Virus record (IMG/VR): IMGVR_UViG_3300023487_000049
Span: 1-5,041 of that record
Length of the DNA stretch: 5,041 nucleotides
Source of the DNA: a virus
Taxonomy: Duplodnaviria > Heunggongvirae > Uroviricota > Caudoviricetes
Direction: 5' to 3' (one strand)
A model generated the notes under the pieces. The model was given only the letters and a program-made list of their open reading frames with translations, had not been told where the DNA came from and ran no database searches. Of this stretch, positions 4,094-4,920 are shown in pieces (within the stretch, counting starts at the first letter, position 1; each line of letters begins with the position of its first letter). The position numbers and the translations under genes are program-made.

Positions 4094-4336
4094 TCATGCT
4101 CCGGTAGTGAACAGGTCTAACGCTTCCTTCGATTTACGCACCGCTTCGATAGTGCGGGTAGTGATATCTGAATTAGCGCCGCCTGACTGGAAGTGAATTT
4201 TGAATAGCTCAAGATTCAGCTCGTCAGTACCAATGAACTGAAATGCTTCCTCTGCAGCTGCGTTCTGGTTCATGACCAGTTTGTAAATCTCTAACTGGAA
4301 TTTCTGTTCTTCAGTCATGGGAATAATCTCTGCCAT
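4094..4336 (-). CDS. Hypothetical protein, 80 aa, immediately upstream of terS (position and length match P22 orf80)
   Basis: Track ORF 4094..4336 minus (MAEIIPMTEEQKFQLEIYKLV...). GGAG lies about 6 nt upstream of the ATG. Same orientation and tight spacing with terS, and the translation is not low-complexity. No recognisable domain by eye. Confidence 0.6.
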   Translation of the reverse strand: MAEIIPMTEEQKFQLEIYKLVMNQNAAAEEAFQFIGTDELNLELFKIHFQSGGANSDITTRTIEAVRKSKEALDLFTTGA

Positions 4337-4357
4337 TGTCGGCTCCGTTTATCCGTT

Positions 4358-4383
4358 AAAAGGGATATCAGTTAAGATATCCC
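4358..4383 (-). terminator. Weak terminator-like hairpin (8-bp stem GGGATATC, 6-nt loop) followed by TTTT on the minus strand, just upstream of the 80-aa ORF
   Basis: Plus strand 4362..4369 GGGATATC, loop 4370..4375, 4376..4383 GATATCCC, with AAAA at 4358..4361 (T-run on the transcribed minus strand). Stem is only 50% GC and the T-run is short, so function is doubtful. Confidence 0.25.
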
Positions 4384-4576
4384 GTGTAGGGTATAAGCCA
4401 TTGTCGAGACCACTCATTGAATGGCCTCTGCAATAACCGATGTCTTTCCATCAGTCCGCCACCACAAAGAATCTTTTTTGCCTTAAGGCAGGAGGTTCAT
4501 CTTTCAGTGGCTGCCAGTGTTATTTCCCCACTTTCTGGCTTGGGTTGTTTCGCTGTACTGCCGCAACTGGTGGTGC

Positions 4577-4596
4577 ACAGATTTAGTTAAATCTGT
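4577..4596. repeat. Perfect 9-bp inverted repeat with 2-bp spacer (ACAGATTTA-gt-TAAATCTGT), operator-like dyad in non-coding DNA
   Basis: Read directly from the sequence: 4577..4585 ACAGATTTA is the exact reverse complement of 4588..4596 TAAATCTGT. AT-rich, no flanking T-run on either strand, so more consistent with a dimeric protein-binding site than a terminator. Function unknown. Confidence 0.4.
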
Positions 4597-4613
4597 TCTC
4601 GCCTGAACTATCT

Positions 4614-4642
4614 TTTACATACCCGGATTGTGGGGATGTAAA
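4614..4642. repeat. Imperfect 11-bp stem / 7-nt loop inverted repeat (TTTACATACCC-ggattgt-GGGGATGTAAA)
   Basis: Read directly from the sequence: 10 of 11 positions pair (one A/G mismatch). No adjacent T-run. Lies in the same non-coding island as the 20-bp dyad. Function unknown. Confidence 0.35.
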
Positions 4643-4689
4643 TCACGGTTTCATTATCAAGCCCACCCGTAGATAGGCTTTGTAATGAC

Positions 4690-4878
4690 TTACCCCAGCT
4701 TTGCTCGCACCAGCGCATCTTTAGCTTCGAGCAGCTTGCGGAGACCTGCTGACTTTTCAGCACTGTCCGGCAGTGATTCATCCATCAGTGTCGCAAGGTC
4801 ACCGATTGGCTTACTTACTTCCTGCAGATGCGCAGGGAGGTGTTGATAAGCGAAATACTTCATGATTGGAGATGACAT
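4690..4878 (-). CDS. Hypothetical small protein, 62 aa, between the spanin gene and the packaging genes
   Basis: Track ORF 4690..4878 minus (MSSPIMKYFAYQHLPAHLQEVSKPIGDLATLMDESLPDSAEKSAGLRKLLEAKDALVRAKLG). GAGGGT Shine-Dalgarno about 8 nt upstream of the ATG. Same strand as the late operon. No transmembrane segment or known motif visible. Not recognised by me. Confidence 0.45.
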   Translation of the reverse strand: MSSPIMKYFAYQHLPAHLQEVSKPIGDLATLMDESLPDSAEKSAGLRKLLEAKDALVRAKLG

Positions 4879-4896
4879 TATTTACCCTCGGGTAGT

Positions 4897-4920
4897 AAAA
4901 AGCCTCGCTATTACGAGGCT
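4897..4920 (-). terminator. Rho-independent terminator-like hairpin between the Rz-like stop and the 62-aa ORF
   Basis: Minus strand reads AGCCTCG-taatag-CGAGGCT followed by TTTTT (plus strand AAAAA 4897..4901, stem 4901..4907 and 4914..4920, loop 4908..4913). Located 9 nt downstream of the Rz-like stop codon (4929..4931). Confidence 0.45.

What the first reader, a model, noticed from the sequence alone, without database searches (positions are those of the whole stretch)
4337..4689. Structured ~350-bp non-coding island between the lysis and packaging modules
In an otherwise tightly packed late operon with overlapping genes, this stretch has no convincing ORF on either strand but carries three separate dyad elements: a hairpin plus T-run at 4358..4383, a perfect 9-bp inverted repeat at 4577..4596 and an 11-bp imperfect stem-loop at 4614..4642. 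It also has a perfect 10-bp palindrome GCCTTAAGGC at 4480..4489 next to an AGGAGG. P22 as I recall it carries a ~200-codon ORF (orf201) in this region, which does not fit here. This inter-module position is a known hotspot for morons and module exchange in lambdoid and P22-like phages. The island could encode a small RNA, a regulator binding site, or be a scar of gene replacement.
Basis: partly seen in the sequence, partly recalled or inferred. Interest (0 to 1): 0.5.

Follow-up and report, generated by a model that had tools for sequence, protein, structure and literature searches.

The report
Conserved structured RNA in phage operon
The gap between the lysis and DNA-packaging genes of this P22-like phage holds a folded RNA of about 127 bases, probably a divergent relative of an orphan phage RNA family, that is nearly unchanged in 165 phage records and a fifth of complete E. 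coli genomes; its function is unknown.

Summary
All four dyads and the lack of a credible ORF are confirmed, and the island folds far better than shuffles (z -5.3).

The important part was missed. It is a ~127-nt core (4563..4437, minus strand, sense to the late operon), at least 90% identical in 165 phage records (P22, HK97, HK022, HK620, Sf6, L and others). It is also in 1120 of 5426 complete E. coli genomes, unannotated.

Gene content changes on both sides of the core, and new genes enter exactly at its 3' end. Two paralogous 38-nt hairpins bracket it, and relatives without the core keep one hybrid hairpin. It therefore behaves as a cassette.

The core is probably a sub-threshold relative of Rfam Proteo-phage-1 (RF03044: 18.7 bits, cut-off 42). 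A model I built from full-length Pseudomonas-phage members hits it end to end (15 bits, E about 3e-5). The loop and tail strings, a GAAAGA hairpin and a covarying loop-tail helix are shared.

No promoter, tRNA or coding signal was found. I read it as an accessory RNA cassette co-transcribed with late genes. Its mechanism is inferred only. Verdict: new variant of a known, function-orphan RNA class.

The parts
4651..4688 (-). Hairpin A: 6 bp, a 2x2 CA/GA internal loop, 9 bp, and a UACG loop. It starts one base after the stop codon of the 62-aa ORF. It is one of two paralogous hairpins that bracket the cassette.
   Evidence: -19.5 kcal/mol, z -6.5. The same hairpin follows different upstream genes in HK620, HK97, Sf6, Louie and Stx phage 2851. 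It is paralogous to 4399-4435: 27 of 43 aligned positions identical, 0 of 5000 shuffles as good.
4614..4642 (-). Lineage-specific filler.
   Evidence: z -2.4. Block B (4566-4650) occurs in only 14 phage records. It is absent from HK97, L and P22.
4577..4596 (-). Other flank classes carry a different small hairpin with a UUAAY-type loop at this place.
   Evidence: (z -3.6).
4437..4563 (-). Conserved RNA core, CGGCAG...GGAAAGACAUCGG: a Proteo-phage-1-like RNA without a recognisable P1.
   Evidence: 165 phage records at 90% identity or more, 155 of them nearly full length. 1120 of 5426 complete E. coli genomes. At least 5 different 5' flank types and at least 5 different 3' flank types join at its edges. 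Rfam RF03044 gives 18.7 bits at 4572..4509. My own model R1 gives 15 bits, E about 3e-5, at 4573..4436. nhmmer gives E 0.011.
4513..4539 (-). Loop-tail helix: GCCAG (4539..4535) pairs with CUGGC (4517..4513). In classical family members this pairing crosses the P2 stem as an H-type pseudoknot. Here the P2 stem is reduced to CCC (4544..4542) and GGG (4529..4527).
   Evidence: The loop string AAGCCAGAAAGUG and the tail GAAAUAACACUGGCAGCC match the family consensus with two mismatches, which are the two sides of one base pair; 0 matches expected by chance. In an unbiased scan the two positions covary: 87 G/C, 10 A/U, 1 U/G and no mismatch.
4458..4511 (-). Long hairpin P3': GCCACU/GGUGGC, AAAGA/UCUUU and UGCC/GGCA.
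   Evidence: The CM aligns it to one of the two long hairpins of the Pseudomonas type I RNA. Natural type I variants with only one such hairpin exist: L187 and phage Solano.
4437..4454 (-). P5 hairpin CUGAUG-GAAAGA-CAUCGG, preceded by UGGCGGAC (4461..4454).
   Evidence: It matches the type I consensus GGCGGACAGnnGGAAAGAC with 1 mismatch; 0 expected by chance. The stem is paired in all 22 distinct sequences of the combined alignment, and 4 of 5 pairs change on both sides (that alignment was fitted to the model).
4399..4435 (-). Hairpin A': 5 bp, a CA/GA internal loop, 10 bp. The second copy of the bracketing hairpin.
   Evidence: -18.7 kcal/mol, z -4.8. Present in about 70% of core-bearing variants. 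Where a gene is inserted after P5, A' follows that gene.
4358..4383 (-). Terminal hairpin GGGAUAUC-UUAACU-GAUAUCCC followed by UUUU. At best a weak terminator. It is independent of the core.
   Evidence: -13 kcal/mol. It fails the terminator scan because it has only 4 U. It is also present in core-less phages 2851 and mEp460.
4094..4346 (-). Shine-Dalgarno GGAG (4346..4343) and orf80, a DUF2560 protein (ATG at 4336). First gene downstream of the island.
   Evidence: PF10834, E 1e-42.
4690..4878 (-). 62-aa ORF of unknown function, the upstream neighbour of the island. An intrinsic terminator precedes it at 4920..4901.
   Evidence: phrog_1761, E 1e-33.

Best explanation
The island is an accessory non-coding RNA cassette inside the late operon. 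Its core (4563..4437, minus strand) is a folded RNA made of three elements. First, a helix between a conserved loop (AAGCCAG..AGUG) and a conserved tail (GAAAUAACACUGGCAGCC). Second, a long hairpin with a CCUCC loop. Third, a hairpin with a GAAAGA loop. It is most likely a diverged relative of the Proteo-phage-1 RNAs of Pseudomonas and Burkholderia-type phages, lacking P1 and with a minimal P2.

It has no promoter of its own. It is made only as part of the late transcript that Q-antiterminated RNA polymerase carries from the lysis genes into orf80 and the terminase genes.

Shown here: conservation as a unit, cassette behaviour between two paralogous hairpins, strand, structure, covariation of the loop-tail helix across the wider family, and absence of coding, tRNA and promoter signals.

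Inferred only: the two flanking hairpins mark or protect the ends of an RNA that is cut out of the late transcript, and that RNA acts through its invariant unpaired bases on a conserved host or phage partner, as an accessory (moron-like) function rather than an essential one.
For: - Conservation as a unit. The core is at least 90% identical in 165 phage records of different head and packaging types, and is in 21% of complete E. coli genomes. Both flanks vary, and recombination joints fall at its edges.
- Cassette behaviour. Hairpins A and A' are paralogous. Phages 2851 and mEp460 have one hybrid hairpin and no core. HK620 has only these two copies in its whole genome.
- Family link. Rfam RF03044 is the only phage family among the weak hits. 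An independent model, R1, built from 8 full-length Pseudomonas-phage RNAs (97.8% of cells paired, 8 compensatory pairs), hits the window end to end at 15 bits, E about 3e-5; the next hit has E 0.7. It finds every E. coli-type locus tested.
- Reciprocal search. 11 of the 14 best hits of the E. coli-type model R2 fall on true family members.
- Consensus strings match with 1-2 mismatches and none expected by chance.
- The loop-tail pair covaries: 87 G-C, 10 A-U, 1 U-G, no mismatch. The window has A-U.
- Orientation and context. The element is always sense to the operon. Type I members lie just after a pR'-like promoter and terminator and before the lysis genes.
- No sense-strand promoter was found in the window, HK97 or P22.
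- Not coding. P22 has a 2-nt indel and a stop, and only the first four codons, 'MERH', which lie within the P5 hairpin, are kept across flank classes.
Against: - The Rfam score is far below the gathering cut-off (18.7 against 42 bits).
- CM noise in GC-rich loci reaches 10-13 bits, against 14-19 bits for the E. coli type.
- Pairwise alignment to the closest single member is weak (z 2.8).
- R2 hits on family members are individually non-significant (E 0.15-3).
- Enterobacterial copies are at least 94% identical, so they give no covariation of their own.
- 11 of 126 copies have an A.C mismatch in the loop-tail helix.
- High identity is also what recent mosaic exchange would give without selection.
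- Nothing here shows that a discrete RNA species exists, that the hairpins are processing sites, or what the partner is.
- Core-less relatives show the element is dispensable.
Confidence: 0.55

Rival explanations
1. A cis-acting element of the elongation complex. The nascent RNA binds RNA polymerase, or a factor riding on it, and promotes read-through of downstream terminators and pauses. It would work like HK022 put RNA or the Bacillus EAR element. It never needs to be released.
For: - The element is always on the sense strand inside long operons, with no promoter of its own.
- In Pseudomonas type I phages it sits between two intrinsic terminators, directly ahead of the lysis and structural genes.
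- In Mu-like contexts it follows the ner-like gene at the head of the early operon.
- In the window it precedes a hairpin plus U4 and all the packaging genes.
- The Rfam consensus is two hairpins one base apart with invariant unpaired bases. This recalls the two stem-loops of the ~70-nt put RNA (PMC9378689).
Against: - These coliphages already use Q, whose modification persists across the late operon (HK620 annotation).
- The enterobacterial form has lost P1 and most of P2, which is the two-hairpin part.
- Core-less relatives run the same operon without it.
- I found no sequence similarity to put, and did not test for it.
Confidence: 0.2
2. A 5' leader for the downstream genes. The folded core stabilises the processed mRNA for orf80 and the terminase genes, or its CCUCC loop pairs with a Shine-Dalgarno sequence to tune translation.
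For: - The CCUCC loop at 4495..4491 is conserved. Several other subtypes carry CUCCUUUC or ACCUCC in the equivalent loop.
- New genes with their own GGAG sites are inserted right after P5.
- The orf80 SD (GGAG) lies about 90 nt downstream.
Against: - The downstream gene differs completely between subtypes: holin, orf80, a Mu-like early gene, or inserted morons. A gene-specific regulator is therefore unlikely.
- Type I loops have only CUCA or CCUCA.
- Simple 5' protection would not need invariant unpaired bases.
Confidence: 0.1
3. A mosaic joint or scar with no RNA function. The sequence is shared only because lambdoid phages exchange modules here by homologous recombination (a 'boundary sequence'), and the hairpins are left-over terminators.
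For: - Flanks are highly mosaic.
- HK97 keeps an orf80 fragment, L has a deletion that fuses reading frames, and ES18 and HK75 keep only pieces of the core.
- Copies are so similar (at least 94%) that selection cannot be measured within them.
Against: - Joints avoid the interior of the core in almost all of about 120 variants.
- The core matches RNAs of distant Pseudomonas phages in three separate blocks, with a compensatory base-pair change. A DNA-level linker does not predict that.
- 1119 of the 1120 E. coli genomes that have it keep at least 80% of it.
Confidence: 0.1
4. A conserved enterobacterial phage RNA that is unrelated to Proteo-phage-1. On this view the resemblance is convergent or a chance result, and the core is a new class of its own.
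For: The score is below the Rfam cut-off. There is no P1. The linker between loop and tail is 7 nt here against 10 or more elsewhere. The CM score is only a few bits above noise.
Against: - Three consensus blocks occur in the same order, with 0 chance matches expected.
- The CM hit runs end to end with E about 3e-5.
- The reciprocal hits are enriched on true members.
- Natural one-hairpin-less intermediates exist (L187, Solano).
- Other clearly related subtypes also fall below Rfam's cut-off.
Confidence: 0.12
5. A small protein gene. Candidates are the 35-aa CDS annotated in phage Louie, the 27-aa ORF starting at the ATG in P5, and the N-terminus of ST64T/L orf118.
For: Automatic annotations place CDSs here in some records.
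Against: - The upstream ATG is absent in the window (TTAAGG).
- P22 has a stop and a 2-nt indel.
- The alternative 3' flanks change everything after the first four codons.
- There is no Shine-Dalgarno.
- Substitutions are not silent-biased.
Confidence: 0.03

Closest known systems
Proteo-phage-1 RNA motif (Rfam RF03044; Weinberg et al. 2017, PMC5737381)
   Same: The loop string AAGCCnGnnAGUG, the A-rich linker and the tail AACACnGGCAGCC come in the same order on the sense strand of a phage operon. The loop-tail complementarity is kept by a G-C to A-U change. The window also shares a downstream UGGCGGAC plus GAAAGA hairpin with the full-length Pseudomonas versions.
   Different: The score is 18.7 bits against a cut-off of 42. 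There is no recognisable P1 and the P2 stem is cut to 3-4 bp. There is one long hairpin instead of two. The host range is enterobacterial. The position is after the lysis genes rather than before them. It is bracketed by a duplicated hairpin. The function of the family itself is unknown: I found no paper text on it, and the supplement was not available.
HK022 put RNAs (putL, putR)
   Same: A cis-encoded structured RNA on the sense strand of a lambdoid operon, upstream of terminators. About 70 nt, two stem-loops, with no protein cofactor needed (PMC9378689).
   Different: put lies just downstream of the early promoters. This element lies in the middle of the late operon of phages that use Q, HK022 itself included. 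I established no sequence or fold similarity, and tested no function.
EAR (eps-associated RNA) of Bacillales. From my own knowledge: Irnov and Winkler 2010.
   Same: A pseudoknotted RNA located inside a long operon, not at its 5' end.
   Different: Different sequence, host and operon. EAR is a shown antiterminator. Nothing comparable is shown here.
Lambdoid morons and moron insertion hotspots; tRNA genes embedded in late transcripts
   Same: Present or absent between otherwise similar phages. It lies in the Rz-to-terminase hotspot beside accessory genes (KilA-N, an annotated anti-CRISPR, Sf6 gene 66). Classical members neighbour tRNA genes.
   Different: Morons are protein genes with their own promoter and terminator. 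This cassette encodes no protein and has no detectable promoter.

Membership tests
Rfam RF03044 Proteo-phage-1 | Covariance-model score at or above the curated gathering cut-off (42 bits) | tested here: not met
   18.7 bits, E 1.3, at 4572..4509 minus. Other clearly related subtypes (type III in Mu-like contexts, and L258, L259, L262) also miss the cut-off.
Rfam RF03044 Proteo-phage-1 | P1 hairpin (5 bp, internal loop, 3 bp) one base upstream of P2 | tested here: not met
   The 5' 20 nt of the core align only to the 3' half of P1. The sequence upstream of the core differs between flank classes. A small unrelated hairpin is often present there.
Rfam RF03044 Proteo-phage-1 | P2 hairpin whose ~15-nt loop carries AAGCCGGnnAGUG | tested here: inconclusive
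   The loop string is present (AAGCCAGAAAGUG, 4541..4529). The stem is reduced to CCC(A)/(U)GGG.
Rfam RF03044 Proteo-phage-1 | 3' tail GAAAnAACaCCGGCAGCC | tested here: met
   GAAAUAACACUGGCAGCC at 4526..4509. The combined loop and tail pattern has 2 mismatches and 0 chance matches.
Rfam RF03044 Proteo-phage-1 | Loop-tail base pairing (pseudoknot). Rfam does not annotate it; I inferred it here from covariation. | tested here: met
   GCCAG pairs with CUGGC. In a scan with both positions left free: 87 G/C, 10 A/U, 1 U/G, no mismatch. 115 of 126 E. coli-type copies are A/U and 11 are A.C.
Rfam RF03044 Proteo-phage-1 | Occurs in phages and prophages of Proteobacteria, sense to the surrounding operon | tested here: met
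Full-length Pseudomonas-phage 'type I' RNA (defined here: P1-P2-P3-P4-P5; alignment A4, model R1) | End-to-end match to the model, including UGGCGGAC and the P5 hairpin with a GAAAGA loop | tested here: met
   15 bits, E about 3e-5, model positions 1-198. GGCGGACUGAUGGAAAGAC has 1 mismatch to the consensus and 0 chance matches. E-values are rough, and noise reaches 10-13 bits in GC-rich DNA.
Full-length Pseudomonas-phage 'type I' RNA | Two long hairpins (P3 and P4) between the tail and P5 | tested here: not met
   Only one long hairpin is present (4458-4511). Natural type I variants with one hairpin exist: L187 at 73 bits and phage Solano at 80 bits.
Intrinsic (Rho-independent) terminator, for 4358-4383 | G+C-rich stem followed by at least 5 U within 8 nt | tested here: not met
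   An 8-bp stem, but only UUUU follows. The scan does not list it.
Protein-coding gene or decayed pseudogene | A conserved reading frame with coding-type substitutions in relatives | tested here: not met
   There are frame-breaking indels and stops, and the alternative 3' flanks begin right after codon 4.
tRNA / tmRNA | Cloverleaf detected by ARAGORN | tested here: not met
   0 genes in the window.
HK022 put-type antiterminator RNA | Nascent RNA that makes RNA polymerase terminator-resistant in cis | not testable with these tools
   This needs transcription assays. Only the positional and architectural resemblance is noted (PMC9378689).

The most novel reading that the evidence does not exclude
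The core is a functional RNA machine part of the late operon in textbook phages (P22, HK97, HK022, Sf6, HK620). One version is a protein-independent put/EAR-like element acting on RNA polymerase. The other is an excised RNA whose anti-Shine-Dalgarno-like loop and invariant bases target a conserved host factor, for host take-over or counter-defence. Either would give the first function for the orphan Proteo-phage-1 class. Either would also add an unrecognised RNA layer to the best-studied late operons.
Probability: 0.2. Interest if true: 0.8.

Novelty: new variant of a known kind. Interest (0 to 1): 0.58.

Why it matters
Proteo-phage-1 is a bioinformatic orphan, known mainly from Pseudomonas and Burkholderia-type phages and metagenomes. 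If the link holds, a diverged form is present and unannotated in genetically tractable model phages: P22, HK97, HK022, HK620 and Sf6. It is also in about one in five complete E. coli genomes. Even the carefully annotated HK620 record has no feature there.

That makes the function of the class directly testable with standard phage genetics: clean deletions, compensatory mutants of the loop-tail helix, Northern blots and read-through assays.

It also corrects annotations. Several records place hypothetical CDSs, or an over-long 'orf118', on top of the RNA. Finally, it shows that Rfam's model misses several related subtypes.

Tried and rejected
- ARAGORN found no tRNA or tmRNA.
- No Rfam family reaches its cut-off in the window.
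- The sigma-70 promoter scan found nothing on either strand in the window, and nothing on the sense strand upstream of the core in HK97 and P22. An independent sRNA gene is therefore not supported.
- Small ORFs on both strands were checked and rejected.
- Literature. No paper in the library mentions Proteo-phage-1. Weinberg 2017 has no text on it and the supplement is not held. The BTP1 antisense RNA STnc6030 lies at the tailspike, not here. The 'orf80 P22' search gave nothing relevant.
- Within-group covariation could not be measured. Enterobacterial copies differ by at most 8 of 130 nt, and the one apparent outlier (L017) is a recombinant.
- The one-genome-per-species scan found the E. coli type only in Escherichia, Shimwellia and a few MAG contigs, so no graded intermediates were found.
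- Pairwise alignment to L187 is only weakly significant (z 2.8).
- The reciprocal model R2 gives individually non-significant E-values.
- The idea that hairpin A is a dispersed repeat was rejected: HK620 has only the two copies.
- The idea that the CCUCC loop is universal in the family was rejected: type I has CUCA or CCUCA.
- PHROG and Pfam searches of the genes upstream of type I RNAs did not show whether they are Q-like.
- BLAST of the type III motif against named phages found nothing.
Full report
**Setting.** The window is a P22-like late operon read on its minus strand. In order it holds the end of Rz (to 4932), an intrinsic terminator (4920..4901), a 62-aa ORF (4878..4690) and the 353-nt island (4689..4337). 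Then come orf80, a DUF2560 protein (4336..4094), small terminase gp3 (GP3_package), large terminase gp2 and the portal. All features below are given on the minus strand, which is the sense strand.

**Check of the observation.**
- The island folds much better than dinucleotide shuffles: sense z -5.3, antisense z -4.3.
- No ORF of 60 aa or more lies in it.
- The strongest dyads were not listed. These are hairpin A (4651-4688, -19.5 kcal/mol) and hairpin A' (4399-4435, -18.7 kcal/mol).
- The 'hairpin plus T-run' has only four U and fails the terminator scan.

**Conservation is modular.** BLAST of the island finds 207 phage records, but only 29 cover most of it. It breaks into five pieces.
- Hairpin A follows the stop codon of whatever gene lies upstream: hkbL in HK620, gp73 in HK97, gene 65 in Sf6, an annotated anti-CRISPR in Louie.
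- A core of about 127 nt (4563..4437) occurs in 165 records, 155 of them nearly full length and all at least 90% identical.
- Hairpin A'.
- A terminal hairpin with UUUU and the orf80 ribosome site.

The core is also in 1120 of 5426 complete E. coli genomes. It is almost always full length and never annotated there. The thoroughly annotated HK620 record has no feature at this position.

Among about 120 variants I found at least five unrelated 5' flanks and at least five 3' flanks. They join at CGGCAG on one side and directly after GGAAAGACAUC on the other. Several 3' flanks are inserted genes, such as Sf6 gene 66. In P22, ORF201 ends exactly where the core starts.

**Cassette behaviour.** Hairpins A and A' are paralogues. 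They share the same architecture: an outer stem, a CA/GA internal loop and an inner stem. 27 of 43 aligned positions are identical, no shuffle in 5000 does as well, and there are compensatory A-U to G-C changes. Phages without the core (Stx phage 2851, mEp460) carry one hybrid hairpin, followed by the same GGCUUAUACCC and terminal hairpin. HK620 has just these two copies in its genome. The core therefore sits between direct repeats and is gained or lost as a unit.

**Not coding, not a tRNA, no promoter.**
- P22 has a 2-nt indel and a stop in the candidate frames.
- The window lacks the upstream ATG.
- Across flank classes only the first four codons, 'MERH', which lie within the P5 hairpin, are kept.
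- The ST64T/L 'orf118' is an orf80 paralogue whose annotated start has been pushed back into the RNA, because the terminal hairpin is deleted there.
- ARAGORN finds nothing.
- No sigma-70-like promoter lies upstream on the sense strand in the window, HK97 or P22.

The RNA can therefore only be made as part of the late transcript.

**Relation to a known RNA family.** The best phage-related Rfam hit is Proteo-phage-1 (RF03044) at 4572..4509, with 18.7 bits against a cut-off of 42. I collected true members from viral contigs by pattern. One scores 77.6 bits.

In lambdoid Pseudomonas phages (phiAH14a, Solano and relatives) the Rfam motif is the 5' third of a longer RNA. It continues through two long hairpins, UGGCGGAC and a hairpin with a GAAAGA loop, often ending in an intrinsic terminator. 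My alignment of eight such RNAs supports this structure: 97.8% of cells paired and 8 pairs with compensatory changes.

The evidence that links the window to this RNA:
- The covariance model built from that alignment hits the window once, end to end, at 4573..4436. The score is 15 bits and E about 3e-5; the next hit has E 0.7.
- The same model finds every enterobacterial locus tested, at 14-19 bits.
- A sequence-only profile finds the same place (E 0.011).
- Consensus strings from the Pseudomonas RNAs match the window with one and two mismatches, with none expected by chance.
- The two mismatches in the loop-tail pattern are the two sides of one base pair.
- In a scan that left both positions free, I counted 87 G-C, 10 A-U, 1 U-G and no mismatch, in at least three independent A-U lineages. 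This supports a loop-tail pseudoknot across the family, and the window conforms to it.
- Natural Pseudomonas variants with a single long hairpin (L187, Solano) bridge the architectures.
- A reciprocal model built from enterobacterial copies puts 11 of its 14 best hits on true members, though each E-value is weak.

Caveats:
- CM E-values are rough, and noise reaches 10-13 bits in GC-rich DNA.
- P1 is absent and P2 is minimal.
- Enterobacterial copies are too alike to give covariation of their own.
- 11 of 126 copies carry an A.C in the loop-tail helix.
- Rfam's cut-off also misses other obviously related subtypes.

I put the homology at about 0.7-0.75.

**Context of relatives.** The RNA is always sense to the operon.
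- Type I lies directly after a pR'-like promoter and short terminated leader, and ahead of the lysis and terminase genes. It is sometimes next to tRNA genes.
- Another subtype lies after a ner-like gene and ahead of the transposase in Mu-like phages.
- A third lies after a LuxR-type gene.
- The downstream gene is never the same, so this is not a gene-specific leader.

**Mechanism.**
- Shown: a conserved, folded, sense-strand RNA cassette without a promoter of its own, which is dispensable because core-less relatives exist.
- Inferred: how it works.
- I favour an accessory RNA that is co-transcribed late and delimited by the flanking hairpins. It would act through its invariant unpaired bases on a conserved partner. 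The reasons are its presence/absence polymorphism, its place in the moron hotspot, its company with tRNA genes and its cassette ends.
- The main rival is a put/EAR-like cis action on the elongation complex. The terminators that follow the RNA and its place at operon heads in other subtypes favour this. The presence of Q and the loss of P1 and P2 in the coliphage form count against it.
- A leader or anti-Shine-Dalgarno role, a functionless mosaic joint, an unrelated new class and a small protein are less likely, for the reasons given under the rivals.

**Verdict.** The thing itself is a new, sub-threshold variant of a known but function-orphan RNA class, sitting unannotated in model phages.

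Noticed in passing
L002 (HK97) about 1795-1890; window 4336..about 4270: HK97 keeps the ribosome site and the first ~70 nt of orf80 (DUF2560), fused upstream of its HNH endonuclease gene gp74. The mosaic joint lies inside orf80.
   Followed up: partly
L006 (phage L) 1647-2003: The annotated 'orf118' of ST64T/L is an orf80 paralogue. Its start codon was placed in the P5 hairpin of the RNA core, because the terminal hairpin is deleted and the frame stays open. This is probably an over-extended annotation. Louie CDS0065 and several 'hypothetical proteins' also lie on the RNA.
   Followed up: partly
L003 (Sf6) 1754-2164, and flank classes: Accessory genes are inserted exactly after the last base pair of P5 in at least four independent flank classes. 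Hairpin A' then follows the inserted gene.
   Followed up: partly
window 4491-4495 (minus strand); L258, L262, L270, L273, L276, L278: The loop of the long hairpin after the tail carries CCUCC here, and CUCCUUUC or ACCUCCUUUC in several other subtypes. This copies the 16S rRNA anti-Shine-Dalgarno end. Type I has only CUCA or CCUCA.
   Followed up: partly
L147, L162, L200, L258, L259, L262: Rfam's RF03044 gathering cut-off does not detect several clearly related subtypes: those in a Mu-like context, and the A-U loop-tail lineages. The family is broader than its model.
   Followed up: partly
L187 1638-1784; L257 (phage Solano) 3001-3140: Natural versions of the Pseudomonas type I RNA that lack one of the two long hairpins (73 and 80 bits with model R1).
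   Followed up: yes
window 4896-4920: A strong terminator hairpin (AGCCUCGUAAUAGCGAGGCUUUUU on the sense strand; also flagged on the other strand) lies between the end of Rz and the 62-aa ORF. It leaves no room for a promoter, so the 62-aa ORF depends on antiterminated read-through.
   Followed up: no
L005 (P22) 1729-2080: Between the RNA core and ORF80, P22 carries a 104-aa ORF on the opposite strand with its own terminator. AF217253 does not annotate it.
   Followed up: no
L023 2500-3010: Upstream of a classical Proteo-phage-1 RNA there is a tRNA-like 3' fragment (GGUUCGAGUCCUGG...CCACC) and a terminator. Two tRNA genes follow the RNA. In L131 a tRNA-like T-arm/acceptor stretch also follows it.
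   Followed up: no
ES18 (NC_006949) 46594-46639; HK75 (NC_016160) 35752-35780: Rare partial copies of the core: the first 45 nt in ES18 and the last 29 nt in HK75. They show that recombination can occasionally cut inside it.
   Followed up: no
window 4474-4495 (plus strand); L002 1657-1636: The complement of the long hairpin's apex scores as a weak terminator-like site on the antisense strand in every copy. This is probably a by-product of the sense-strand structure.
   Followed up: no
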